Source: a virus. Taken from it: a stretch of 64,000 nucleotides of DNA. The DNA lies in the IMG/VR virus record IMGVR_UViG_3300020473_000020, positions 74,060 through 138,059 of that record; one strand, written 5' to 3'. Under the pieces are notes generated by a model that saw only the letters and a program-made list of their open reading frames with translations, ran no database searches and was not told the DNA's origin. The position numbers and the translations under genes are program-made. Below are positions 1-51,086 of the stretch, piece by piece; positions within the stretch are counted from its first letter, which is position 1, and every line of letters starts with the position of its first letter.

Positions 1-1908
1 AACAAGTACAAGACGTTTGCCTTCTTCTTGTGATTCGCGGATCGCGTCAAGCTGGTCTTGAAGCTGTTTGTTCGGGATGTAGCTCGTTGTCTGATGTGGT
101 ACATCGCCATTTTGTTTCACTTCGGCTTCAAATGCTTCAAACAGTGGTGATGTAACCGCCGCCATTTTTGCGTTCAGCGCATCTTCTTTCGAGGCAGCGC
201 CTTTCTCTTTAAAGCCAAAGCCAAATGCTTCGCGTAGGAATGGAGCAGGGCGTGGGAAACCACCCACGTTTACACGGTCAGTACTTGAAAGGTCAATGCG
301 GATGGCTTCGTCATCGTTTTTCTTAATGGCCTGATTGATACCAGCTGTTTTAGCGATACCCATACGGCCTAAAAGCATTAACGGTAGACCCGCACGATAA
401 GTGTGGTCAATGAAGCTTTCTGAATCCGTCGTCGTGATGTCAACTTCAATGCCTGAGCTTTCTAACCAGCGAAGTACGCCACCTGCTGTGGTTGCACCTA
501 GGATGCCAGAAATTACTTGTCGGTACGGTAGCTCGTTATTCTCAAGACACCATGCTAGATACGTCATTGTATCTTCCCAACCACGGAACGTAGGGAATTT
601 GCCGTCGCCATCCATCGCACTGATGTCGTGCAGTGATTGCTGGTCGAAACCAAAACGGGCTAGTTCTTGTAGCTGAGGGTGCTTTTGAACGGCCTCTAAT
701 TCAACGAGATAGTCGAAAGCGCCTTTTTGTATGCTTGGGTCACTAGAACTCACTACATACGGGATAAAGCGGTCTACTTTTGCAACGTCATCAACGTTTT
801 GAACTAGGTAGATTAGTTTTTCGTATTGCTCTGGGTCTAGCTCGTCGAGCTTATCCATTTCAACAGGTAAGTTCGCAGCGGCTAGCTTAGGCGCAATAGA
901 AATATCGTAGTCATTTAACGCGTGGCCATTGATCATAACCATTAACTGGTTCATCACTTCTTTAGGCGTACGGTTAATTTCATCGAAGAACATGACAGGC
1001 GTCTTCGCATATTCGCGTAGGCGCGCTTCAAATTCTTTGTCGCTTTCGCTTACGGTTACTTCACCCGAGTCGATACGTTGAACCATTGAACGGCATGACT
1101 CAACAAATGGCGTCGTACACGTCAGTAATTCAAGTTTAGGTGAGTCCGTCCAGCGCTCATTCATTTGAGAAAGCAATGAACCGTCTGAACCGTCAGTCTC
1201 TGAGGTCAGTGTGATCATACCCAGCATGTCCATCTTATCGAAGAACGCTGCACGGATGTCGACTAGACGGTAACCCCAATCGCCTGCTGCTTCGTTAGCG
1301 CTTGAGTTTAGCTCTTTAATAACAGACTTAACTGATGCAGATTTGGAAATACCTGAGTGACCAATTAGAAGTGGTGCCTTGTTCACTTTCTTGGCATCAA
1401 AGCCCACAATCGACGTCTTAATCACATTGCTGATATTCGAAACCGTACGGAAGCGGTTTAGCGGATTATCGGCGCGTGATTTAAGTGATTGTTTGTTTGA
1501 GGCGCGTGAGAAACGAGCTTCCATTAAATCTCCATCTTCTAATAACTCTTCTGCAACCGTCTCGGGCTGAGTCATCGAAGCGAGGGCTAACACCTCTTCT
1601 GGGTCGGCTCCAAATACGCTGATGGCACGCTCGCGAGCGGCTTCTTCGTCAGTATAGACTGACACTGCGTATTCAGTTGAAGGATTTAGCTTCATGTAGG
1701 CACAGTGGAATGGCAAATCTTGCGCTGCACCCATGATGTATACTTCACCGTCAAACATCGCCAGCTCAGGGCGGCGTGCATGCGGTTCGATAAACGCAGG
1801 TACTTCACCATAGTTCTTTACCATGGTAGTTGCAACCTGCATAAACTGTTCACTAACTACGCTGCGGTATTCTAACAGCGAAATAGTATCTCTAACAGAC
1901 TTAAACAT
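1..1908 (-). CDS. Tandem AAA+ ATPase (MoxR/midasin-like), 3' end beyond the window
   Basis: Not in the ORF track because it has no stop in the window. ATG at 1908 follows AGGGG. Manual translation gives APLLIGHSGISKS (Walker A), VMFFDEINR (Walker B) and AAAN, then a second P-loop PLMLLGRMGIAKT, ending ...GKRLVLV at the window edge. Confidence 0.8.
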   Translation of the reverse strand, partial: MFKSVRDTISLLEYRSVVSEQFMQVATTMVKNYGEVPAFIEPHARRPELAMFDGEVYIMGAAQDLPFHCAYMKLNPSTEYAVSVYTDEEAARERAISVFGADPEEVLALASMTQPETVAEELLEDGDLMEARFSRASNKQSLKSRADNPLNRFRTVSNISNVIKTSIVGFDAKKVNKAPLLIGHSGISKSASVKSVIKELNSSANEAAGDWGYRLVDIRAAFFDKMDMLGMITLTSETDGSDGSLLSQMNERWTDSPKLELLTCTTPFVESCRSMVQRIDSGEVTVSESDKEFEARLREYAKTPVMFFDEINRTPKEVMNQLMVMINGHALNDYDISIAPKLAAANLPVEMDKLDELDPEQYEKLIYLVQNVDDVAKVDRFIPYVVSSSDPSIQKGAFDYLVELEAVQKHPQLQELARFGFDQQSLHDISAMDGDGKFPTFRGWEDTMTYLAWCLENNELPYRQVISGILGATTAGGVLRWLESSGIEVDITTTDSESFIDHTYRAGLPLMLLGRMGIAKTAGINQAIKKNDDEAIRIDLSSTDRVNVGGFPRPAPFLREAFGFGFKEKGAASKEDALNAKMAAVTSPLFEAFEAEVKQNGDVPHQTTSYIPNKQLQDQLDAIRESQEEGKRLVLV

Positions 1909-1925
1909 TTATTTTCCCCTGCTTT

Positions 1926-2243
1926 TTACACCGCGCCTAACAGGTCGCGATAGTGTAGTTCTTCCACTTGGCCAAGTAGCGTTTTGGCTTCTTCAAGTGT
2001 TTTACCATTTAGGGCAAATTTACCCATTTCTGCACGGAAGTCGCGCTTATAAATCCAAGCCTTTTTGTAATCTAGGCTTAGTTTTACTTGGCATTCCAAC
2101 CGAATACTGGCTTGAACAGGCAGAGTGACGTTTGAAACTTTGCCAGCGACTACGCCTGCCTTAACTAGTTCCGCGCCTTCGCTTGGTTCTAGAAAAGTTA
2201 CGCCGTCGAAGGTAAGTCTCGAAAGCACCTCAATTGCGCTCAT
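1926..2243 (-). CDS. hypothetical protein
   Basis: ORF with GAGGA/GAG upstream, co-oriented with neighbours. Confidence 0.6.
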   Translation of the reverse strand: MSAIEVLSRLTFDGVTFLEPSEGAELVKAGVVAGKVSNVTLPVQASIRLECQVKLSLDYKKAWIYKRDFRAEMGKFALNGKTLEEAKTLLGQVEELHYRDLLGAV

Positions 2244-2280
2244 ATTCTCATCCTCGTACGCACCATTACAGTGCTTGTTA

Positions 2281-2499
2281 TTAATCGTTCAACAACATTT
2301 CTGCTGTCAGGTTAGTTAAAACTGGCTGTTCGACTTCCGAAGGCTGGGCAGCTTCTGCAAGTGCTGCGCGTTGTGTCGTCAACGACTCGACAACAGCTCT
2401 AGACTTAGTACGCATACGTTGGTCACGTTCCATAAAGCGCTGCTTCGCTGATCGTGGGGCGTGCGTTTCTTGCACGTTTAAGAGTGCTGATAGACTCAT
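2281..2499 (-). CDS. hypothetical protein
   Basis: Start reassigned to the ATG at 2499 (MSLSALLNVQE), preceded by GGAG. Confidence 0.55.
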   Translation of the reverse strand: MSLSALLNVQETHAPRSAKQRFMERDQRMRTKSRAVVESLTTQRAALAEAAQPSEVEQPVLTNLTAEMLLND

Positions 2500-2909
2500 A
2501 GCATTACTCCACAAGTAAATAAATTTACGTCTCTTGTACCTGCAAACAGGCACGGTTGTCTCAATCTCAATTCACTACCGTGATTGCAGGTAAAGCCCTA
2601 GAAAGTCACAGGTAAGTGAACTTATTGTACAACGCTACGGGGCAAAGAGAAAGCCAAAAGGGGTGGTGCGTGAGGTGGTGGGGTGCCAGATAAACGACAA
2701 CCCGCACACATACGTGTAGCGGGTTGTTAATATATAATAAGACTTTTAGTGTTAAAGCTAACCTTGTGCCCTTTAAGCCATTGTGACCTAAAGGTTTTGC
2801 TTATCTCGGTTTGCAGGAGCATAGTAGCAAAAACAGATCCCTGCTTCCACCCTTAATTCACTTATTTTCCTATGTTTTTGTACAATGCTTTCGAGGTCTT
2901 GTACACGAC

Positions 2910-3140
2910 CTAATTCGCGACATGCGGCTCGTGCATAAGGTAATCAGTGATCCATGTCGTGGCAGCCGTTAAAGTCTTAAACTTTAACCAATCACCGTCT
3001 GGCGTGACCGATGCGCAGCTATGCTCGCCAATTACTACAAAGTTGCCGTCTTCACCCCGAATACGGAAGATGCGTTCTTGCTTCGAGTACACATCCCAAT
3101 GATGTGTATTGCGATGATAAAAGCTAAATGATTTGTTCAT
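2910..3140 (-). CDS. hypothetical protein
   Basis: 76-aa ORF with AGGT upstream and protein-like composition. Confidence 0.55.
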   Translation of the reverse strand: MNKSFSFYHRNTHHWDVYSKQERIFRIRGEDGNFVVIGEHSCASVTPDGDWLKFKTLTAATTWITDYLMHEPHVAN

Positions 3141-3169
3141 GTATGTACCTGATTTTTTTGTCTAAAAAT

Positions 3170-3203
3170 AAAACCCCAGACACTTGAAAGTGCCTAGGGG
3201 TTT
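3170..3203 (-). terminator. intrinsic terminator downstream of the DNA polymerase gene
   Basis: AAACCCC-AGACACTT...AAGTGCCT-AGGGGTTT imperfect stem followed by a U-rich tract on the minus strand. Confidence 0.5.
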
Positions 3204-3244
3204 GCTTTGTTTGTTAGTGCTTATTTACGCTAAAGCCCTTTATT

Positions 3245-5848
3245 TTAGATGCCGCCCGAAATCTTGGCTCTCAGATTTGGTATAAAGTCAGCTGATGAGT
3301 ATTCACCAATAACTTCTTGGGCTGCCCAGTGTGGACCTGCTTCGGCTTCTACTAGTAACGGCACGTTAATGAAGTCAAATTCAGACAAGCACATTAGCTC
3401 GGCAACAAACTCCACCGTGTCGATAACTTCGTCTTCTGGGCAGTAGAACGTAATATCATCGTGAATGTTTACCGCAGGTTGAATACCTTCTTTAACCATG
3501 CGGTTCATTGCATCTACTACGATGTCTGACGCTGTGCCCTGTACTGGCGAGTTAACGAGCTGGTTGTAGGAGAGGGGACCATGGCGTTTACGGCCTGTCA
3601 TTGTTTGTACGTAACCATTGCGCTTATAGAAATCAACCATACGCTCTTGGTAACGCTTAACCCCTGCGAACGTGTCCCAGAACTCGTCGTATAGCGGTTG
3701 GATTACGTCTGTAGGGATTTGCAGTGTACGCGCACAACTAAACATACTTGAACCGAAGAACAGCGGGAATACCCATTGGTTTTTAACGTTACCACGGAAC
3801 GTTTTTAACGCTTTCGGGTCATTTAGCTTATCTTCGCCGCCGATAACTTTAGGGTAGGCTTGAGAGATTTTCTTAGCCCATTCCATGTGAACGTCGTAGT
3901 TATCCCAAAGTGCCTTACAGAAGTTGACGTCGTGACTGATCATACCCCACACACGTGCCTCTATTTGGCCATAATCCACTGACACAATGTGGTGCCCCTT
4001 CGGACAGTTAATACCCTCACGTACCTTCTTACCATCACCACGCTTAGGGAAGTTTTGTGCATTCGGATCCGAACTAGAAAGACGGCCAGTACCTGTACGA
4101 TAAAGGTTAAAGCTCGCGTGAAGCTTACCGTCATCATGGACTAGCCCCTTTCGCTTACCCTTCTTGTCAGTCTCTTCGTTAGAGTACGTCCACGCGTCAA
4201 CGTAAGTCGACATGATCTTCGTAAGCTTACGTAGTTTACGAATAATACCTGCGCTCTCTAAGCCTGCATTTTCAAGCTTTTCCATCACGGTGTCATCGGT
4301 TGATGGCTTACGATTACCGAAGTTATCTTCAACCATAACCTCTGGGCGTTGCAGCATATCTTTATACAAGGCTAGAAGGTCTGCTGGTGATGAGTGTTGC
4401 AGCTTACCCTTACGTCGTCCGTACTTCTTATTGTACTTCTCGATCTCGTAAACGTTTTCTAGGTCTTCTTCTAACTCCGCAATGTTAGTAACGCATTCTT
4501 TACGGAACTCGGCTAGCCACTCGTTGTTAATGTTTAGACCAACCTGCTGTGTACGGGCAAGTGTCGCGCAGCTTCGGATCAAGTGGCCATGAACCCATTC
4601 GGCGTCTTTGTCACCTTCAATCTTTGGCCACAGCTTTTGCTTCAACATGTATGTGTATTTGGTGTCCATACCGTTGTACAGTAGGAGCGTGCGCAGGTCG
4701 GCTTTTAGAACGTTACGCGTATCGACGTTAGTCAGTTCTTTTAAGCGGAAGCCTAAGTGTATTTGACACAGTGCATCTAGGTTTAGAACACCTTGGCGCA
4801 CGTCAAGAACATAACCCATGGCCATCGTGTCATCCCAAGGCGTATTCAAGATATTATCGCCGTAGAAGTAGCTTAGCCATTCTTGCTCAAACGGTAAGTT
4901 ATGGGCGATTTTGCTTGTCTTCTTGCGACGGAAGAAACGACGCAGTGCCTTCTCAATACGCTCGCGTTGGTTCGTGTTCCAACCCATAGGGTGGTAAACA
5001 GGAAAGGCAATGGTGTGCTTATCCGTTCCGATTGCGATAGTCACGACCTTACTTGCTTTTGAGTACGGACGTAGGCGAGTGGTCTCAATATCCACGCCGA
5101 CCTCTGGCCATGTGCCCATTTCTTCCAATACCTCTTCGACACGGTCAACCTCTGAGTCGGTTTGACCCATGATGATCTCAATATTGTCCTCATAGCCCGA
5201 GATAATCGGTTTAGGTGGGTTCTCAGCAAAGTCACCACGCTGAATGCCACGGCTAAAGCGCTTAATGTCCTGCAAGAATGCACGCTCATACTCGTTTATT
5301 TCTTTCTGTCGGTCACGACGTGTACTTGCAACATAATCGACTGAGTAAAGCGGGAAGTACCAGAAGCTATGGCCTTTGTAATGGCACAGAACCTGACGCC
5401 CGCGCCATGCTTGCACGTCGCCTTCACCTAAAAAGTGCTTTAGCGGCGCATAGCCTAAACCAAGTACATACGTTGGCTTTTGTTTAAGGAAGTCCTCATC
5501 AAAGCGCGAACGACAGGCAATACCTGCATTAGCAGCTTCGTCGTTATCTGGCGTAGCCCCTTGTACAAGCGCATGGATTGTGATCTTTTTCTTGAGCCAG
5601 CCTGACGGGAAGGCGCTCTTGAGTTGTTGCCACTTAGAGCCTGTTAGGAACTCACCTGAGCGTTCATCAGTTACTGATGGACGGTCAACAATTAAGGCAA
5701 TGTCGTTGTCTAGCTCGCCCGTGCAGGTCATCTGCTCGCACGTGTCTTTCAATGGGCATACATGACAGCCGCCCTTGCCTAGGGTGCGCATAGGTACTTT
5801 CTTGTCAATGCGCTTCTTCTTTCTTTGACCAAAAAATGAACCAGCCAC
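3245..5848 (-). CDS. polA: Family A DNA polymerase with N-terminal UDG-like (SPO1-type) domain and 3'-5' exonuclease
   Basis: Exo motifs GVDIETT, HNLPFE, YNGMD; TGTGRLSSSDPNAQN; motif A DYGQIEAR; NSPVQGTASD; motif C NIHDD; N-terminal CxxCxLxxxC cluster as in family-4 UDG. Confidence 0.93.
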   Translation of the reverse strand: MAGSFFGQRKKKRIDKKVPMRTLGKGGCHVCPLKDTCEQMTCTGELDNDIALIVDRPSVTDERSGEFLTGSKWQQLKSAFPSGWLKKKITIHALVQGATPDNDEAANAGIACRSRFDEDFLKQKPTYVLGLGYAPLKHFLGEGDVQAWRGRQVLCHYKGHSFWYFPLYSVDYVASTRRDRQKEINEYERAFLQDIKRFSRGIQRGDFAENPPKPIISGYEDNIEIIMGQTDSEVDRVEEVLEEMGTWPEVGVDIETTRLRPYSKASKVVTIAIGTDKHTIAFPVYHPMGWNTNQRERIEKALRRFFRRKKTSKIAHNLPFEQEWLSYFYGDNILNTPWDDTMAMGYVLDVRQGVLNLDALCQIHLGFRLKELTNVDTRNVLKADLRTLLLYNGMDTKYTYMLKQKLWPKIEGDKDAEWVHGHLIRSCATLARTQQVGLNINNEWLAEFRKECVTNIAELEEDLENVYEIEKYNKKYGRRKGKLQHSSPADLLALYKDMLQRPEVMVEDNFGNRKPSTDDTVMEKLENAGLESAGIIRKLRKLTKIMSTYVDAWTYSNEETDKKGKRKGLVHDDGKLHASFNLYRTGTGRLSSSDPNAQNFPKRGDGKKVREGINCPKGHHIVSVDYGQIEARVWGMISHDVNFCKALWDNYDVHMEWAKKISQAYPKVIGGEDKLNDPKALKTFRGNVKNQWVFPLFFGSSMFSCARTLQIPTDVIQPLYDEFWDTFAGVKRYQERMVDFYKRNGYVQTMTGRKRHGPLSYNQLVNSPVQGTASDIVVDAMNRMVKEGIQPAVNIHDDITFYCPEDEVIDTVEFVAELMCLSEFDFINVPLLVEAEAGPHWAAQEVIGEYSSADFIPNLRAKISGGI

Positions 5849-5851
5849 GAC

Positions 5852-6961
5852 TTACTCCACCGAAATAATGTGAGTGATGTAGTCGCCGTTTCTGAACACG
5901 ATAACATTACCGCTTGCCCAGTGGCCTTCTTCTAGGATCTTAGCTGCGCGAAGCACATAGTTAGGGTTCACCATGATTTCAACATCAGGGGCTAAGCCTC
6001 CCACCCAGCGGTCGCTCAAGTCTTGCTGCTGTGTATCTTGTGATAGTACTGCTTCACTTTCTTTAGAGCCTTCGCTAATGCTCAGTGTCTCTTGAGTCTG
6101 GTGCTTGTTAACTGCGATCTTGTGCACACCTGCGGCACGCGTGAAGATAGCGCGTAGGTCGTCATCAACCTCAAACCATTCATCTTCTTTCGTTTCAGGC
6201 ATTGCCTCGTCGAACACGTCTTCATAAGGCATGATGTCTGCGTCAGGTAGTTCTACCATTAACCAGCCGTAGTCCTCGCCGAAGTTACAGTGCAGGTAGG
6301 TCTCGCCGAAGCTCAGTTTTACCTTGCCGTTGTGGTCTTCAAAGAAGTGCTTGTACAACTTTAAGAACTGCTTACAGAAATCGTTGGGCAATAATACAAG
6401 GTCATTCTCGTAGTCGCCTTTCGGTGGACATTTCGCACCATTGATGACTGCACGTGTCAGCGTCTGGTCATCTGTACTATAAAGCGTTAGTGGCTCACCT
6501 TCGCGCATTGAAAGTGCAACCGAGCCAAACACATCAAAAAAGTATTGTGTGTCGATGCTCAGCATTGCTGAGGCGAGGGCTTCTGAGAAAGCCATATCGA
6601 CTTCCATGGTAAACACAGCATCGTCAGTTAGGCTATCAACAGTTAACACGAACTCTTCGGCAGGGTGGGTTACAAACGCCATCTTAGAGCGGCCATGCTT
6701 CAAAACTAGGTTGCCATCGTTCTCCACGAATGACACTTCCTCTGCTCGGATAGTGCTCACACATTTGTTAAGGGCGTTACCAGCTATTGCTGCTGAGAAA
6801 GAAGTATCAAGGGCTACGCCAATTGAAATGAAATCGTTATATGCAAAAACGCAGTCGCCAGTAAAGCAATAGCTTTGCATGATCGGAAGGATGTTATTCA
6901 GGCTTAGTGCAGGTTTTACCAGCTGCAAAGCCTCTTGCAGATCATCTGTTCTACAGGTCAT
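5852..6961 (-). CDS. DNA sliding clamp, beta-subunit-like
   Basis: N-terminus DLQEALQLVKPALSLNNILPIMQSYCF resembles DnaN; about 370 aa, acidic; adjacent to the polymerase; start moved to the ATG at 6961. Confidence 0.7.
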   Translation of the reverse strand: MTCRTDDLQEALQLVKPALSLNNILPIMQSYCFTGDCVFAYNDFISIGVALDTSFSAAIAGNALNKCVSTIRAEEVSFVENDGNLVLKHGRSKMAFVTHPAEEFVLTVDSLTDDAVFTMEVDMAFSEALASAMLSIDTQYFFDVFGSVALSMREGEPLTLYSTDDQTLTRAVINGAKCPPKGDYENDLVLLPNDFCKQFLKLYKHFFEDHNGKVKLSFGETYLHCNFGEDYGWLMVELPDADIMPYEDVFDEAMPETKEDEWFEVDDDLRAIFTRAAGVHKIAVNKHQTQETLSISEGSKESEAVLSQDTQQQDLSDRWVGGLAPDVEIMVNPNYVLRAAKILEEGHWASGNVIVFRNGDYITHIISVE

Positions 6962-44555: not shown

Positions 44556-45569
44556 ATGAAAAATATCTTGGATGCGAATGCTAAAAAAGCAACGTTGTTT
44601 CATATCCGCACAGCTAAGGACATTGATTGGTCGCAGTTGAACGCCATGGCTTATAACCCTGAGCAGGCGCTCGATGTGAATAATAAACGCATCGGTTTTG
44701 TGCACCCGCTAGAAACCTTAGAAATTGCACCAGAAGGTGAAATTTTCGAACAATACGAAGGCGGTCTGATCGGTGCTCTCCGCACGGACAAGTCTGTCGT
44801 AACTTCTACCGCAATTAAGCAAGCAGCAGCCGTTCAAATCAAACAGCGACTTGAGGAACTACCAGAAGACGCACGCTTGAGCAAAGAAGAACGCGAGTCT
44901 ATTACAATCGCTGTACGTCAAAAGCTGCTTAAAGATTCTACTGAGGTTTCTAGCTACGTCCCATTCATTATCGACGAGAAGAACTCAAGACTTATCATTT
45001 TCAGCACGACGTCTGATATTTTAGAAGCGGTAAAGGTACGCCTTAATAATATGTTTGCTGGTGACCTTGAATTGATTGACTACTCATCATTCGCAGTCAA
45101 AGCTGAGATCAACAATATAGCTGCAAAATTCCTTTCTAAGCTTCAAACATACCATACGGCTCATGCTGCCGATGCACATGATATGGTTTTCGAGGGCTGT
45201 GATGGCCTTAGCTTCGGCACAGGTGTGAAGCTATCATCATTCGACGATACGAGTGGTAACGATGGCGGGTTCCCGTCGATTGATGTCACCGACGAGCGCC
45301 TTTTACAGCTAATTGAAAGTGCTACGGGCATTGAGAAAATTGGACTGTTTCTTGTCCACTCGACAAGTGATATTGACTTCACACTTAACTCTAAGTTGCA
45401 GTTCGATAAGCTTGGGTTAGACAGTGTTCTGATTCATGGGTTGCAGGAAGATGACCTGCAAGACCCAACAGGTGAGATCCGCGCGACTGCTCAAATTCTA
45501 GCCGACTGTGTAGACATTATGCAGAAAAACGTAACGAATTGGCTTGGAATGTCTGAGCACATCGGATAG
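44556..45569 (+). CDS. rdgC: RdgC-like recombination-associated protein
   Basis: IGFVHP, LRTDKSV, LSKEERESI...VRQKLL, IDFTLNSKLQF follow the RdgC pattern. Confidence 0.7.
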   Translation: MKNILDANAKKATLFHIRTAKDIDWSQLNAMAYNPEQALDVNNKRIGFVHPLETLEIAPEGEIFEQYEGGLIGALRTDKSVVTSTAIKQAAAVQIKQRLEELPEDARLSKEERESITIAVRQKLLKDSTEVSSYVPFIIDEKNSRLIIFSTTSDILEAVKVRLNNMFAGDLELIDYSSFAVKAEINNIAAKFLSKLQTYHTAHAADAHDMVFEGCDGLSFGTGVKLSSFDDTSGNDGGFPSIDVTDERLLQLIESATGIEKIGLFLVHSTSDIDFTLNSKLQFDKLGLDSVLIHGLQEDDLQDPTGEIRATAQILADCVDIMQKNVTNWLGMSEHIG

Positions 45570-46443: not shown

Positions 46444-46470
46444 AAAAATGCCGCTATAAGCGGCATTTTT
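46444..46470. terminator. bidirectional intrinsic terminator
   Basis: AAAAATGCCGCT-ATA-AGCGGCATTTTT. Confidence 0.8.
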
Positions 46471-46522
46471 GTTACACACAATCTCAAATAAAACAGACCT
46501 ATTATGGTCGTGGTTCGGGAAC

Positions 46523-46651
46523 CTATTTCACTGGGCGCTGGAAAGGTGACATGTCAGGCTCTCGCTCGATCTTCGGGTCACCACCTTGGTTACCGCCGCC
46601 AGCTACACCACCAGTCACTTTGGCTAAATCACTCTTCGATAGTTCTTTCAT
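46523..46651 (-). CDS. 42-aa double-glycine-leader peptide precursor
   Basis: Below the ORF-track cutoff. MKELSKSDLAKVTGG/VAGGGNQGGDPKIEREPDMSPFQRPVK; GAGGA RBS 9 nt upstream; the leader fits the LSxxE/DLxxV/IxGG consensus. Confidence 0.8.
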   Translation of the reverse strand: MKELSKSDLAKVTGGVAGGGNQGGDPKIEREPDMSPFQRPVK

Positions 46652-46679
46652 CGTGTGTCATCCTCTAAAATTAGGCTAA

Positions 46680-47294
46680 TCACCCATTGTTAAACGGGTC
46701 TACTTTTAAACGCCTACCTACAAGACCATCTAGTGTCATTGTCAGTAGCGCAAAAGTTAAAGCAATAATTAGGCCAAGCTTAAAAGATGGGTACGTGTTG
46801 TATATAAACATTGGTTTCTCAGCAAGTATGCCTGAGTGGCGTACTACGTATTCGGCAACTAGCGTGAGATTCGCTGCTATAGAAAACCCAAATATTAAAC
46901 GGATAAAATACTCTTGGCGGGCATAACCGAGGTCATTAAAAGCACGGTATATATAGCTAGTCGTGTCGTGAACACAAAGAAAGTTTGATAGCTTATGGCC
47001 AACACGTAGGCGGTATTTTAGAAGCAGTATTGCAGTCAAATCTGATAAAGAGTAGCAAATTTGATGAACTATTAGTGAATTTGGCAAGTATGGTTGAAAT
47101 ACAAACAGGTCAACCATGGATAGTGTGAACAGGATTCCCACTATCCATATACGCAATGCGTCCCTGATGTTTAAGCCCACTACAATAACCATCGCCAAAA
47201 AGTAAGCCGTTACGATGTAGGTCGAAGGCTTACTGTAGTCCAGATTATTAAAAGTGTTAACGAGTAAGTCATACATTATTCTTGTGTCCCTCAT
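46680..47294 (-). CDS. polytopic membrane protein (about 5 TM), candidate peptide receptor or immunity protein
   Basis: Five hydrophobic segments; lies between the HTH gene and the peptide gene; alternative start at 47276. Confidence 0.75.
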   Translation of the reverse strand: MRDTRIMYDLLVNTFNNLDYSKPSTYIVTAYFLAMVIVVGLNIRDALRIWIVGILFTLSMVDLFVFQPYLPNSLIVHQICYSLSDLTAILLLKYRLRVGHKLSNFLCVHDTTSYIYRAFNDLGYARQEYFIRLIFGFSIAANLTLVAEYVVRHSGILAEKPMFIYNTYPSFKLGLIIALTFALLTMTLDGLVGRRLKVDPFNNG

Positions 47295-47610
47295 CCTTTA
47301 GTGCTTGTAGTACTACGTCCTTGTCTGCCAGTGAGAGCTGACTAAATAGCTTAACAAAGAAGAGTACAGTGTGTTTTGCGAAACTAACACCGCCACCCTT
47401 TTTCCTTTGCGCTTCTAGCAGCATTTCATACTGCGAAACATTTGGCTCACTGGTAGACTCTTCGTCTTCCCAGTTCCTAACAGTCGGCGCAGTTACGTCA
47501 ACGAGTGCGCCAAAGTTCGTTAAATTCATTCCCAAGTTTTTGCGCATAGCTGCAACGTTTCTTGAGACTTGTCGAGTGCGTGTCGTCGGCACTCGCTTCG
47601 CGGCCACCAT
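47269..47610 (-). CDS. XRE-family HTH regulator
   Basis: MRKNLGMNLTNFGALVDVTAPTVRNWE...EP; GAGGA RBS. Confidence 0.85.
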   Translation of the reverse strand: MVAAKRVPTTRTRQVSRNVAAMRKNLGMNLTNFGALVDVTAPTVRNWEDEESTSEPNVSQYEMLLEAQRKKGGGVSFAKHTVLFFVKLFSQLSLADKDVVLQALKDEGHKNNV

Positions 47611-47880
47611 AAGCGGTTCCTCAGCGGTAAAACTTTTTTATTAATCGGTATTTTTTAAATTTTTTTAAAATCCCCTGTGCTACAGTCGTTTGCATCAAAG
47701 GAATCACCGCATTTTAATGAAGAAGTTCGAGTGGTCAAACGAAAAGCGTAGGAATTTATAAAAATCAGCCTTTTACATTAGTAATTGGGCTTGTTGCGCC
47801 TGTTTTTTAAGCGACGCTACTGGCGGCGCACGTTAGAACAATTGTTTATTTAAGGCTCAGTAGTTAACTGGCCTTGTCAC

Positions 47881-48908: not shown

Positions 48909-51086
48909 ATGGCCGAACTTGAACTAAACAGTGGCATGTTAGACGGTGAAATGGGTAACGCCATTAAGAAGCTAATCACATCAGCAATGGTTGACGATTA
49001 CGATGGGTGTATCAAAGAACAAAACTCAGCTATCGCAATTCGTGGCCACATGATCAGTGACTTCACTAATGATGATGCCCCAATGGGATTCCCTACCTTT
49101 GATGACGTAGGGAACTTGAACTTATTGCAGTACCTAGATAAACACAAGATCATCAGCTTTGACGACCAAGTTGCTTTAGCGCTTGAGGTTCTGACTGATA
49201 AGGGCGGTAGGTTAAACTCGGCAGCACGTAAGCGTATTGCTAAGGAATGGTCGGGTAAATATGATGGTCACTCCCGCGAGCTTGAATTGGTATTAACGCA
49301 AGTACTACTTCACCCTAATGCGCGACTAGCTATTGTGGGCGGGATCCAAGATCAGAAGAACTGGCGAAGAGACCCTGTCGTAAAAATGCTTAGAGCTGGG
49401 CATAGTTGGTTAGGTTTAGATAGCAATATCGAGACTGTTAAGGGCTTCATAGAAAGCTATAAAACGGATGAACGCTACTGGCCGCTTGAGCTTTGGGAGA
49501 TTGCGGCCGTTGATGAATACGGTAGATCTGACAGCTTCGCAGCAAGTATAACTAATGCTTGTGAGGGGTATCTAAATACTTTGCTTGTAAAGGCTCGCAT
49601 TTTTAGCGACCTTACTGCAACACAGAAAAAAGGTCTGATCCTCGCACTTTACGCGATTAGTTCACTTCTATCGACACGAACTGTTATTGCCCCGTTCGAC
49701 GCTGCAATCCCTAAGCTAGATAGCTACATTAATTTTGGCCGCTTGCGTCACCATGGGTTATGCGACGCACAAGGAAAGGCTTCACCGATTTATGAAATTG
49801 CGAAAGGCGTAGCCTTGAACTTGGGGGAGTCCGTCGGCAGTAGTAAGGGTGAAATAATTTATGCAGGTATCAAGTCGATCATTGAAACTGTTGGTTATGA
49901 TATAAGCAAACTTGACGATTTGAAGGGGTCGATGCGTGCCTATTACGCTAGATTACTCACGGATCGCGTGGTTAAACTTGTGATGGAGATCGAGGACATC
50001 ATAGAGATTCTAGAGTCTCCCGACTGCCATTATGTCTTTTCCGACGAAGGGAAAACGTTCTTAAATGACCTCAGAGAAGACTTATTTACGTGGCTTAAAT
50101 ACTTACGGTCTGATGACATTAAAGAAGGTAATGACATCAGCAAGCTAAGCGTCGATGAGGCTGCGACTTACGATTACTGGGTCGGAAAATTCCGAGGTAT
50201 TCTTGCGGATAACCCGTATACAGAAACGTTTGCCGACCATCTTGCTTCTAGGAACCTCAACATTGAGAAGCTACAGCGTCAGGCACAAGAGGCCATAGTT
50301 GAAATGGACACTGAAACTCTTATGTCAGTAACTAAGCAACTAAACGAAGCTAAGACGGCCGCGCAGAGTATATTAATAGAGTTGTACAATCCTTTACGGC
50401 TTACTGAGGCAATGAAAGACGGCGCGCCAAAGAAAGAAGCCAGTCCCAAAAAAGGCAATGATGGCCATGACCAGCTACTGGATGACTTAGAGCATACGAT
50501 AGACACTCTTGAGGGTAAGCTTGCTGATGAGACAGAGAGCCGTAGTGCTTTAGGGAAAGAATTGGCCGAGGCAAAGCGTAATATAAAAGCGATGGAAAAG
50601 GCGTTGGCCGATGCCAGCGAAGATAGCAGCGATGCTTTCGTAGCACTACTTCGAGGCAGTACACCGCATGCGGTTGTCTCGTCATTCAAGGCACTCGCGG
50701 GTAATCACGTAGTCGTTTTAGATTCAGCTTTGGAATCTGCTAGTAAAAGTACGTTCAAAAACACAGCAAAGCTAATGGAAGCGCTGTCTATACTTTCTGA
50801 TGACTATTACAACCAGATCGTAGTCGAAGGTAAGCCCGATTCTGTTGCGAAGAATGTACTCGGTTTTGCTTACCGTGCGGGTGAGTCCGACACGACTATC
50901 GCAGTTCCTAAGCTACGTGCACAGCGTGAGTTCAAGTATGAAGGCGAAAATTACCTGTTCGTTCAGCACCTGACGCTAGGTACAAAGCGTGGTAACCAAA
51001 CGTCGATTCAAGTCCATTTCAAGATCATTGACAAGAAGCTTGTAATTGCGCGTGTTGGAACCCACTTAGAAGTATCGAGCAGCTAG
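48909..51086 (+). CDS. large helical/coiled-coil protein with possible RelE-like C-terminal domain
   Basis: 725 aa, AGGAG RBS; C-terminus QHLTLG...QVHF...LVIARVGTHL. Confidence 0.7.
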   Translation: MAELELNSGMLDGEMGNAIKKLITSAMVDDYDGCIKEQNSAIAIRGHMISDFTNDDAPMGFPTFDDVGNLNLLQYLDKHKIISFDDQVALALEVLTDKGGRLNSAARKRIAKEWSGKYDGHSRELELVLTQVLLHPNARLAIVGGIQDQKNWRRDPVVKMLRAGHSWLGLDSNIETVKGFIESYKTDERYWPLELWEIAAVDEYGRSDSFAASITNACEGYLNTLLVKARIFSDLTATQKKGLILALYAISSLLSTRTVIAPFDAAIPKLDSYINFGRLRHHGLCDAQGKASPIYEIAKGVALNLGESVGSSKGEIIYAGIKSIIETVGYDISKLDDLKGSMRAYYARLLTDRVVKLVMEIEDIIEILESPDCHYVFSDEGKTFLNDLREDLFTWLKYLRSDDIKEGNDISKLSVDEAATYDYWVGKFRGILADNPYTETFADHLASRNLNIEKLQRQAQEAIVEMDTETLMSVTKQLNEAKTAAQSILIELYNPLRLTEAMKDGAPKKEASPKKGNDGHDQLLDDLEHTIDTLEGKLADETESRSALGKELAEAKRNIKAMEKALADASEDSSDAFVALLRGSTPHAVVSSFKALAGNHVVVLDSALESASKSTFKNTAKLMEALSILSDDYYNQIVVEGKPDSVAKNVLGFAYRAGESDTTIAVPKLRAQREFKYEGENYLFVQHLTLGTKRGNQTSIQVHFKIIDKKLVIARVGTHLEVSSS

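What the first reader, a model, noticed from the sequence alone, without database searches (positions are those of the whole stretch)
46444..47610. Candidate peptide communication system: XRE regulator - membrane protein - double-glycine-leader peptide
Seen: a compact minus-strand operon of an XRE-HTH gene overlapping a ~5-TM protein gene, then an unannotated 42-aa ORF (46523..46651, good RBS) and a terminator. The peptide MKELSKSDLAKVTGG/VAGGGNQGGDPKIEREPDMSPFQRPVK has a typical GG leader. Known: such leaders are cleaved and exported by C39-peptidase ABC transporters and mark bacteriocins and pheromones such as ComC; phage peptide signalling (arbitrium) is described for Bacillus phages with intracellular RRNPP receptors. 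The 27-aa core is hydrophilic and Gly/Pro-rich, unlike pore-forming bacteriocins, and no kinase, transporter or modifying enzyme is adjacent. Inference: a three-gene, kinase-free signalling module in a Gram-negative phage-plasmid, where a secreted peptide is sensed by the membrane protein and relayed to the XRE protein, possibly governing lysis versus plasmid state or superinfection. A microcin/immunity pair is the main alternative.
Basis: partly seen in the sequence, partly recalled or inferred. Interest (0 to 1): 0.88.

Follow-up and report, generated by a model that had tools for sequence, protein, structure and literature searches.

The report
Phage-borne peptide, membrane sensor, regulator cassette
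A giant marine phage carries a three-gene cassette (small DNA-binding regulator, five-helix membrane protein, exported-type peptide) from a large undescribed Pseudoalteromonas gene family that looks like a peptide-sensing switch, though no function has been tested.

Summary
Window 46444-47610 (minus strand) encodes an XRE regulator, an overlapping 198-aa five-helix membrane (TM) protein, a 42-aa peptide and a terminator.

The peptide gene is real:
- Its leader passes NCBIfam TIGR01847.
- A variant strain shows 6 of 7 substitutions synonymous in its frame.
- RNA-library contigs cover it.

The trio is conserved. The TM family matches no Pfam family and no specific solved fold. In the samples searched it is nearly confined to Pseudoalteromonas: 63 of 140 genomes, up to 13 copies each.
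- 43 of 47 unfused TM genes have a same-strand XRE gene nearby. Eight more are fused XRE::TM proteins.
- 40 of 55 TM genes have a neighbouring double-glycine peptide sharing a Gly-rich ...D-P motif right after the cut site.
- Cassette-bearing genomes hold C39 exporters elsewhere (63 of 63, against 39 of 77 without the cassette).
- In one array, three fused paralogues have identical DNA-binding domains but diverged membrane domains.

Best reading (about 0.45): an exported peptide is sensed by a split transmembrane transcription regulator that the phage acquired from its host. Secretion, binding and the regulated genes are untested. A microcin/immunity pair now looks less likely.

Earlier scan notes describe analogous cassettes in other phages. 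I did not test whether they are related.

The parts
47269..47610 (-). XRE-type helix-turn-helix regulator, 113 aa. First gene of the cassette. Its C-terminal helical tail is conserved among cassette relatives.
   Evidence: ORF. PHROG 7950 transcriptional repressor, E 2e-5. Pfam HTH_3 only E 0.06. Aligns with the cassette XREs of Pseudoalteromonas, of which 18 of 19 match HTH_3. The family-specific HMM gives E 6e-21 and is the only hit in the 138-kb record. 7 of 7 substitutions are synonymous in the variant contig.
46680..47276 (-). 198-aa membrane protein of an undescribed family: 5 TM helices and an N-terminal amphipathic helix. The inferred topology is N-out, C-in. R89 and E142 are invariant. 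It is the candidate sensor half of a split transmembrane regulator.
   Evidence: Start fixed by homologues. AlphaFold2 model with 36 sequences: pLDDT 89.5, pTM 0.82. Positive-inside count. No meaningful Pfam family in 36 of 36 members. No PDB sequence match. No specific fold match. 10 of 11 substitutions synonymous.
46523..46651 (-). 42-aa precursor peptide. A double-glycine leader (residues 1-15) is followed by a 27-aa hydrophilic core rich in Gly and Pro. The core starts with the family motif V-x-G-G-G-x-x-G-G-D-P.
   Evidence: TIGR01847: 18.2 bits against a cut-off of 15.7. The strict leader pattern occurs once, against 0.03 in shuffles. Aligns with 15 peptides from relatives; G18, G20 and P26 are invariant. 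6 synonymous substitutions plus I28V in the variant. An RNA-library contig covers 46537-46818.
46444..46470 (-). Intrinsic-terminator-like hairpin that ends the cassette. It lies between convergent genes and is probably bidirectional.
   Evidence: 12-bp stem, 5 G-C pairs, 3-nt loop and a T-run.
47711..47738 (-). Sigma-70-like promoter candidate (TTGACC, 16 nt, TAAAAT), about 100 nt upstream of the XRE start.
   Evidence: 10 of 12 consensus match. The scan found 4 such sites where 3.7 are expected, so this is only a candidate.
46660..46666 (-). Shine-Dalgarno-like AGAGGA in front of the peptide ATG.
   Evidence: Read directly from the sequence.

Best explanation
The cassette is a self-contained peptide-responsive regulatory module of a Pseudoalteromonas-specific family, carried by a jumbo phage.

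Proposed mechanism:
1. The 42-aa precursor is cut after its GG leader and exported by a C39-peptidase ABC exporter supplied in trans by the host.
2. The mature hydrophilic peptide begins with the conserved V-x-GGG-xx-GG-D-P motif. It is bound at the outer face of the five-helix membrane protein, near the conserved E-x3-R motif at the end of TM4.
3. The membrane protein controls the small XRE regulator at its cytoplasmic face. Together the two act as a split transmembrane transcription regulator.
4. In the phage, this lets infected or lysogenic cells emit and/or read a peptide cue in the dialect of the host genus.

Shown here: the genes are real, the trio is conserved, XRE and TM occur fused, exporters co-occur, and the phage copy sits inside the bacterial family.

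Inferred, not shown: export, cleavage, binding, the direction of signalling and the regulated genes.
For: 1. The peptide gene is real: leader above the TIGR01847 cut-off; pattern 1 observed against 0.03 by chance; 6 of 7 substitutions synonymous; RNA-library contigs, 100% identical, bridge the 3' end of the TM gene and the peptide (46537-46818) and cover the XRE gene (47304-47471).

2. The trio is conserved. All six strong Pseudoalteromonas loci and six loci of a distant subfamily carry XRE + GG peptide(s) + TM on one strand. L012 has the phage's order, XRE/TM/peptide/terminator, and a similar MKELSK... leader.

3. Census of 55 distinct TM frames: 43 of 47 unfused ones have a same-strand XRE within 1.3 kb, and 8 are fused. 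40 of 55 have a GG-core peptide within 900 bp. The pattern hits 37 of 1443 nearby same-strand small frames (2.6%), against 39 of 5334 other small frames (0.7%). Six further loci have GG peptides by eye.

4. Rosetta-stone fusions exist: XRE::TM proteins of 287-302 aa in L028, L034, L039 and L083. In L083, three fused paralogues share 93 of 93 residues of HTH plus linker, but only 53-61 of 122 in the membrane domain. That is the pattern of one output with diverged inputs.

5. Conserved polar residues sit at both membrane faces.

6. Exporters co-occur. A C39 domain is found in 63 of 63 cassette-positive genomes against 39 of 77 negative ones. For strong hits the figures are 62 of 63 against 18 of 77.

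7. The phage TM protein nests inside the Pseudoalteromonas family (support 100/99).
Against: - There is no direct evidence of cleavage, export or binding.
- No exporter lies in the held third of the phage or next to any host cassette. The two PCAT genes inspected (L084) are each followed by a roughly 415-aa ORF and sit among other large ORFs, none of which I annotated.
- A 27-aa peptide would have to cross the Gram-negative outer membrane twice.
- The most conserved part of the peptide sits directly after the cut site, while the tails vary. This is unusual for pheromones and would also fit an intracellular partner of the membrane protein.
- Some relatives have poor GG leaders, for example L003.
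- The exporter co-occurrence is not corrected for phylogeny. Cassette-positive genomes may form one clade.
- RNA-library contigs can derive from DNA.
- The window's own XRE is a weak HTH match.
- The regulated targets are unknown.
Confidence: 0.45

Rival explanations
1. Bacteriocin or microcin with immunity. The peptide is an exported antimicrobial, the membrane protein protects the producer, and the XRE protein regulates the operon.
For: The leader is of the bacteriocin type. One relative peptide carries the automatic UniRef name 'Bacteriocin'. Gly-rich cores occur in class II microcins (recalled). A peptide next to a membrane protein is the classic toxin-immunity layout. Several copies per genome and exporters in trans are also seen for bacteriocins.
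Against: The cores are short, hydrophilic and roughly charge-balanced, with no amphipathic or hydrophobic stretch. An immunity protein fused to a DNA-binding domain, in arrays of up to four without a peptide of their own, is hard to explain. The membrane protein is large and has conserved polar motifs on both faces, unlike small, fast-evolving immunity proteins.
Confidence: 0.15
2. Non-exported small protein. The peptide stays in the cell or membrane and modulates the TM-XRE pair as an inhibitor, chaperone or anti-regulator. The GG-type N-terminus is a family trait that is not used for export.
For: The conserved block spans the supposed cut site and the residues just after it. Some leaders are poor. 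No exporter is adjacent. Earlier scan notes describe XRE + floppy small protein + 6-TM cassettes in P1-like phages with no clear export signal (unchecked).
Against: The phage leader passes the curated TIGR01847 cut-off. Multi-unit precursors repeat 'hydrophobic-x-GG + core' two or three times (L026, L027, L067, L048), as expected for serial cleavage. There is strong co-occurrence with C39 exporters.
Confidence: 0.17
3. AgrB/AgrD-like pair. The membrane protein is the enzyme that processes and/or exports the neighbouring precursor, and the sensor is elsewhere.
For: The size (about 190-230 aa, 5-6 TM) and the adjacency to a roughly 40-65-aa precursor resemble AgrB-AgrD (recalled). There are conserved polar residues in the membrane.
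Against: None of the 36 members matches any processing-enzyme family in Pfam. Only R89 and E142 are invariant; no conserved Cys/His or His/His/Glu set is present. Fusion to an HTH domain, and arrays of fused paralogues lacking peptides, fit receptors better than maturases.
Confidence: 0.08
4. Conflict module. The cassette is a toxin-antitoxin, abortive-infection or superinfection-exclusion system in which the membrane protein damages or guards the membrane and the XRE protein is its antitoxin or repressor.
For: The gene order is antitoxin-like: XRE first, overlapping the next gene by 8 nt. There are weak XRE matches to the MqsA and HipB antitoxin families. The cassettes sit in variable or mobile contexts, for example next to an integrase-like gene in L003. 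The cassette is carried by a phage.
Against: There are no PADLOC hits for TM or peptide, and only E 0.011 for XRE. A covalent XRE::TM fusion does not suit a toxin-antitoxin pair. This reading does not explain the conserved exported-type peptide or the exporter co-occurrence.
Confidence: 0.07

Closest known systems
Double-glycine peptide pheromone circuits of streptococci (ComC/ComAB/ComDE, BlpC/BlpAB/BlpRH)
   Same: A small precursor with a GG leader of the type cleaved by C39-peptidase ABC exporters. The mature peptide is presumably read at the membrane. The genes form an autoregulated-looking operon with paralogous 'dialects'. PMC7595303 was seen in a search listing and abstract only.
   Different: There is no histidine kinase and no response regulator. 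The receptor candidate is a 5-6-TM protein of a new family paired with, or fused to, an XRE domain. The exporter is not in the locus. The host is Gram-negative. The module is carried by a phage.
Transmembrane transcription regulators, especially BcrR of Enterococcus (a membrane-bound HTH sensor of the peptide antibiotic bacitracin)
   Same: The fused relatives have an N-terminal HTH followed by several TM helices, and they sit beside a peptide gene. This is the one-component logic listed for BcrR, ToxR and CadC in Table 1 of PMC10269533 (passages read).
   Different: The phage version is split into two overlapping genes. The presumed ligand is encoded in the same cassette. I did not test sequence relatedness to BcrR. 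No Pfam family covers the TM part.
Arbitrium (AimP/AimR/AimX) of Bacillus phages
   Same: Both are phage-encoded short peptides next to a regulator, which raises the idea of phage-phage communication.
   Different: AimR is a cytoplasmic TPR receptor, and AimP uses a Sec signal and Opp re-import (recalled). Here there is no TPR domain. The leader is of the GG type, the receptor candidate is in the membrane, and the module is shared with the host genus and is not private to the phage.
Class II microcins with their immunity proteins (for example MccV/Cvi)
   Same: A GG leader in a Gram-negative organism, a Gly-rich start of the core, and a neighbouring membrane protein.
   Different: The cores are much shorter and hydrophilic. 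No dedicated exporter pair is in the locus. The membrane protein is about 200 aa, conserved, and sometimes fused to an HTH domain.
AgrB/AgrD
   Same: A polytopic membrane protein of about 190 aa encoded next to a precursor of about 45 aa.
   Different: There is no Pfam match and no catalytic Cys/His pair among the invariant residues. An XRE takes the place of AgrC/AgrA.

Membership tests
Bacteriocin-type double-glycine leader peptides (NCBIfam TIGR01847) | N-terminal leader scores above the curated cut-off | tested here: met
   18.2 bits against a cut-off of 15.7, residues 1-15 on profile positions 1-15.
Bacteriocin-type double-glycine leader peptides (NCBIfam TIGR01847) | Hydrophobic residues at -4, -7 and -12, an acidic residue at -8, and G-G at -2/-1 | tested here: met
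   L-S-K-S-D-L-A-K-V-T-G-G read from the sequence. The strict pattern hits once in 138 kb, against 0.03 in shuffles. The consensus itself is recalled.
Bacteriocin-type double-glycine leader peptides (NCBIfam TIGR01847) | A C39-peptidase ABC exporter is available to cleave and export the peptide | tested here: inconclusive
   None in the 138-kb record, which is only 33% of the phage. None is adjacent in the host loci. A C39 domain is present elsewhere in 63 of 63 cassette-positive genomes.
Bacteriocin-type double-glycine leader peptides (NCBIfam TIGR01847) | Cleavage after GG and release of the core | not testable with these tools
   Needs mass spectrometry of supernatants.
XRE / Cro-C1 HTH regulators (Pfam HTH_3, PF01381) | HTH_3 match over the gathering score | tested here: inconclusive
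   The window protein gives E 0.06 and 13.8 bits against a cut-off of 23. PHROG 7950 repressor gives E 2e-5. 18 of 19 aligned relatives match HTH_3 at E <= 0.01, best 2e-10.
Transmembrane transcription regulators (BcrR-like one-component systems) | DNA-binding domain and TM domain in one polypeptide | tested here: not met
   In the window these are two genes overlapping by 8 nt. Relatives in L028, L034, L039 and L083 are fused. The phage form therefore works like a split version and is not a member as defined.
Transmembrane transcription regulators (BcrR-like one-component systems) | Sequence relatedness to BcrR or another characterised member | not tested
   No BcrR sequence was fetched. There is no PDB sequence match for the TM profile.
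Arbitrium / RRNPP peptide systems | Cytoplasmic TPR-type receptor fused to an HTH domain | tested here: not met
   The XRE protein is 113 aa and has no TPR match. No TPR family appears among the 19 relatives.
Arbitrium / RRNPP peptide systems | Sec-type signal peptide on the propeptide | tested here: not met
   The N-terminus is a GG leader with no hydrophobic h-region.
Class II microcin plus immunity pair | A hydrophobic or amphipathic core able to act on membranes or on a membrane target | tested here: not met
   The 27-aa core has 6 Gly, 4 Pro, 4 acidic and 4 basic residues and no hydrophobic run (read). The relatives' cores are alike. This is a judgement from the sequence, not an activity test.
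Class II microcin plus immunity pair | Antimicrobial activity, and protection by the neighbouring gene | not testable with these tools
   Needs killing and immunity assays.
AgrB (Pfam PF04647) and CPBP/Abi (PF02517) membrane peptidases | Match to the family profile | tested here: not met
   0 of 36 family members match either profile at E <= 0.01. The fold searches list neither family, which on its own is inconclusive.

The most novel reading that the evidence does not exclude
This is the first peptide cell-cell signalling system of a Gram-negative genus that uses double-glycine peptides read by a kinase-free, split or fused transmembrane XRE receptor of a new fold family. It has expanded to as many as 13 receptor copies per genome, as if to 'eavesdrop' on many dialects. 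A jumbo phage has captured one emitter-receptor set to talk to, or listen in on, its host population when taking infection decisions.
Probability: 0.3. Interest if true: 0.9.

Novelty: new variant of a known kind. Interest (0 to 1): 0.72.

Why it matters
Peptide quorum sensing is textbook for Gram-positive bacteria and almost unknown in Gram-negative ones. Phage peptide communication (arbitrium) is so far described for Bacillus phages.

This work defines a testable module in culturable marine bacteria. It gives a conserved peptide motif, a modelled receptor candidate with named residues (R89, E142/R146), natural fused and split forms, and a phage-borne copy.

If the module signals, it opens three things: a new receptor class, a route by which jumbo phages tap host communication, and a reason for the many orphan GG peptides in Gram-negative genomes.

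If it turns out to be a toxin-immunity or exclusion system, it is still an unannotated family present in 63 of 140 Pseudoalteromonas species genomes.

Tried and rejected
Searches for DNA of close relatives found nothing:
- Single-protein scans of viral contigs with the TM and XRE proteins.
- Alignment A1 in genome, viral and metagenome contigs.
- megablast of the region against plasmids and phages.
- tblastn of the window TM protein against phages and plasmids.
- tblastn of a wide-subfamily TM protein (from L029) against phages. Against plasmids it hit only 3 Pseudoalteromonas replicons.

The neighbourhoods of the closest homologues, P0002-P0007 (50-62% identity), were therefore never seen.

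The single-peptide search found only the peptide's own cluster.

Structure:
- The first AlphaFold2 model, from 7 sequences, was too poor to use (pLDDT 54).
- The good model gave no Foldseek match below E 0.88.
- VIA-align gave only generic helical bundles, best Z 9.4 to de novo designed proteins. This is no evidence for or against a new fold.
- ESM Atlas returned only unnamed Pseudomonadota clusters.

Complex prediction of the TM protein with the peptide returned 'no answer' (score 0.02). It says nothing either way.

Other results:
- PADLOC gave nothing for the TM protein or the peptide.
- No clear palindromic operator lies upstream of the XRE gene.
- I dropped a CPBP-type metalloprotease idea (QExxxR and HxxxN/H-like strings) because the His positions are not conserved; only R89 and E142 are invariant.
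- L023 and L040 were at first set aside as false hits. L040 is a spurious hit. L023 is a truncated TM frame at a contig edge (E 3.4e-37, edge-flagged) and was counted among the 55.
- No depth or coverage gap is used as evidence.

Literature: six full-text searches found no paper describing this cassette, the TM family or GG-peptide sensing in Pseudoalteromonas. Subscription journals are not covered. PMC11798529 was read as outline and abstract only. For PMC10269533 I read passages around 'BcrR'. All other papers were seen as listings only.
Full report
**What is there**

On the minus strand of window 46444-47610 lie four features:
- An XRE-type gene, 47269-47610, 113 aa.
- A membrane-protein gene.
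- A 42-codon ORF, 46523-46651.
- A strong hairpin terminator, 46470-46444.

Homologues and the public gene call show that the membrane protein starts at the ATG at 47276 (198 aa). It therefore overlaps the XRE stop codon by 8 nt. The peptide ORF has an AGAGGA box 9 nt before its ATG.

The window is the last 64 kb of a 138-kb IMG/VR virus record rated 33% complete. Identical proteins occur on contigs of 416-420 kb. The record encodes:
- A head-maturation protease, a large terminase and a weak major-head match.
- PolA, DnaB, UvsX, SbcC and ribonucleotide reductase homologues, and a ParA-like protein.

Its PolA is at most 37% identical to any phage in the INPHARED collection. So this is a novel jumbo phage, possibly with plasmid-like maintenance.

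**The peptide gene is real**

- Residues 1-15 pass the curated cut-off of NCBIfam TIGR01847 (18.2 against 15.7 bits).
- A strict leader pattern occurs once in the 138-kb record, against 0.03 in 30 shuffles.
- A contig from another sample (X5, about 2% diverged) carries 7 substitutions in the ORF. Six are third-position and synonymous, and one gives I28V. That is the same variant as the second cluster member, P0008.
- By my own binomial arithmetic, six or more of seven substitutions falling on one codon position has a chance of about 0.007.
- The two neighbouring genes behave alike: 10 of 11 substitutions are synonymous in the TM gene and 7 of 7 in the XRE gene.
- Contigs from two metatranscriptome libraries of one sample, 100% identical, cover 46537-46818 (peptide plus the TM 3' end) and 47304-47471 (XRE). 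Such libraries can contain DNA, so this is only a hint of transcription.
- The ORF is already on record as an unnamed predicted protein, so 'unannotated' is not quite right.

**The trio is conserved**

The membrane protein has six homologues at 50-62% identity. One is from Pseudoalteromonas sp. Of7M-16.

An exhaustive profile search of 1.84 billion representatives found only 14 proteins at E <= 0.001. Every named one is from Pseudoalteromonas.

Three chromosomal loci could be fetched, and more came from a genus-wide genome search. Every strong locus shows an XRE gene, one to three small GG-type peptide genes and the membrane gene on one strand. These loci are L002, L003, L004, L012, L014 and L015.

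L012 has exactly the phage's order (XRE overlapping TM, then peptide, then terminator) and an MKELSK... leader. A distant subfamily (L016-L021, E about 1e-12 to 1e-16) keeps the same trio.

Sixteen peptides from 13 loci align on a block that straddles the cut site, roughly GG / V-x-G-G-G-x-x-(G-G)-D-P. G18, G20 and P26 are invariant, and the tails are variable, hydrophilic and Pro-rich.

**A much larger family**

Weak hits of the first profile turned out to be the same kind of module. I rebuilt the profile from 36 sequences (A5) and searched again:
- 63 of 140 Pseudoalteromonas species genomes are positive at E <= 1e-5, with up to 13 copies each. There are 150 listed matches plus 264 more.
- Only 4 of 401 genomes sampled across the order are positive, and three of those belong to the genus set.
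- tblastn in plasmids hit only Pseudoalteromonas replicons, and in phages nothing.

A census of 55 distinct TM frames in 68 loci, some of which overlap, gave:
- 43 of 47 unfused frames have a same-strand XRE gene within 1.3 kb. The four exceptions are two frames at contig edges and a split gene.
- 8 frames are fused XRE::TM proteins.
- 40 of 55 have a GG-core peptide frame within 900 bp on the same strand. The pattern hits 37 of 1443 nearby same-strand small frames (2.6%), against 39 of 5334 other small frames (0.7%).
- Six loci missed by the pattern have GG peptides by eye.

Some precursors carry two or three 'hydrophobic-x-GG + core' units in a row (L026, L027, L048, L067).

The peptide profile found 13 clusters in 5.8 billion proteins. 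All named ones are Pseudoalteromonas 'hypothetical protein', and one also carries the automatic name 'Bacteriocin'.

**What the membrane protein looks like**

- None of the 36 members matches a Pfam family in any meaningful way.
- No PDB sequence matches the profile.
- With the 36-row alignment AlphaFold2 gives pLDDT 89.5 and pTM 0.82. The model has an N-terminal amphipathic helix and five long helices.
- Neither Foldseek nor VIA-align finds anything beyond generic helical bundles.
- Lys and Arg counts over the alignment put loop 1, loop 3 and the C-terminus inside, and the N-terminus, loop 2 and loop 4 outside.
- Only R89 (inner end of TM3) and E142 (outer end of TM4, in the motif E-x-x-x-R followed by a conserved loop) are invariant across all 36 sequences.

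Conserved polar residues on both faces suit a transducer. The lack of a conserved His/Cys set argues against a protease.

**The link to the regulator**

The XRE proteins of the cassettes are homologous to one another, and 18 of 19 match HTH_3.

In L028, L034, L039 and L083, the same HTH domain is fused to the same membrane domain in proteins of 287-302 aa.

One array (L083) reads: fused, XRE, peptide, TM, fused, fused, fused. Its last three fused paralogues are identical over all 93 residues of HTH and linker. They share only 53-61 of 122 residues in the following membrane part.

This is the pattern expected of one output domain coupled to diversified input domains. It is the strongest argument here that the membrane protein is a sensor acting through the XRE domain, and not an immunity protein or a maturase.

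**The exporter**

No C39 domain lies in the held third of the phage, and none is adjacent to any host cassette. The genomes of L002 and L003 each hold several C39 ABC exporters of about 710-750 aa elsewhere.

Across the genus:

| C39 threshold | Cassette-positive genomes | Cassette-negative genomes | Fisher p |
|---|---|---|---|
| Any hit (E <= 1e-5) | 63 of 63 | 39 of 77 | 6e-13 |
| Strong hit (E <= 1e-20) | 62 of 63 | 18 of 77 | 7e-22 |

These p-values ignore shared ancestry.

**Origin of the phage copy**

In a maximum-likelihood tree of the 36 proteins, the phage protein is sister (support 100/99) to the clade that holds the Of7M-16 protein. That group sits inside a 20-row clade of Pseudoalteromonas sequences. 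The phage most likely took the cassette from a Pseudoalteromonas host, which also suggests the host genus. The tree is unrooted, so the direction of transfer is an inference from nesting.

**Reading and rivals**

The best-supported model is a peptide-responsive, split transmembrane transcription regulator with its own exported ligand (confidence about 0.45).

Rivals:
- Microcin plus immunity (0.15).
- A non-exported small partner protein (0.17).
- An AgrBD-like maturase pair (0.08).
- A toxin-antitoxin or exclusion module (0.07).

Open points are export across two membranes, the regulated genes, and what the phage gains.

**Compared with what is known**

The module works like the streptococcal GG-pheromone circuits but lacks a kinase. 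It resembles BcrR-type transmembrane regulators (Table 1 of PMC10269533, passages read), but it is split and encodes its own ligand. It is not arbitrium-like in its parts.

Six full-text searches found no description of it.

**Earlier scan notes**

Notes from this scan report analogous XRE + small protein + 6-TM cassettes in P1-like and other phages. They are unchecked, and I could not compare the sequences.

**Verdict**

This is a new variant of a known kind, built on an unannotated receptor-like family. Interest 0.72.

Noticed in passing
L083 (G055:C2:420500-427500), 875-6039: An array of four fused XRE::TM genes surrounds one XRE-peptide-TM unit. Three of the fused paralogues have 93 of 93 identical HTH and linker residues but only 43-50% identical membrane domains. 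This suggests gene conversion of the output domain or rapid diversification of the sensor.
   Followed up: partly
L026 611-850; L027 2097-2630 (minus); L067 2238-2831 (minus); L048 2142-2483 (minus): Precursors with two or three tandem 'leader-like segment + GG + short core ending ...D-P-[RK]' units, as if several peptides are cut from one protein.
   Followed up: no
window 48909-51086 (+): A 725-aa coiled-coil protein lies two genes from the cassette, beyond the 134-aa ORF that is divergent from the XRE promoter. Its C-terminal 200 aa match PADLOC candidate defence families HEC-07 (E 1.6e-6) and NsnC (E 6e-5).
   Followed up: no
window 44556-45569 (+): An RdgC-like recombination-associated protein (Pfam E 5e-10; PHROG 724 E 2e-17) lies just upstream of the cassette's convergent neighbour.
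   Followed up: no
L016-L021, about 2620-3100 (+): The distant subfamily loci carry a second XRE gene of 95-131 aa, divergently transcribed from the cassette. It adds a further regulator to the trio.
   Followed up: no
L079 768-2387 and 18022-19194 (own record, outside the window): The phage encodes a nicotinamide phosphoribosyl transferase (PHROG 448, E 8e-182) and a glutathionylspermidine synthase (PHROG 6215, E 1e-114). Both are auxiliary metabolic genes.
   Followed up: no
L084 (G001:C1:3875000-3893000): Two C39 ABC exporter genes lie 8 kb apart. Each is followed by a roughly 415-aa ORF and sits among other large ORFs that I did not annotate. No cassette-type peptide lies near them.
   Followed up: no
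G107, G067, G108, G138: In the four genomes of the distant subfamily, the cassette and a C39 exporter gene lie on the same contig, 30-46 kb apart. This is a loose but repeated linkage.
   Followed up: no
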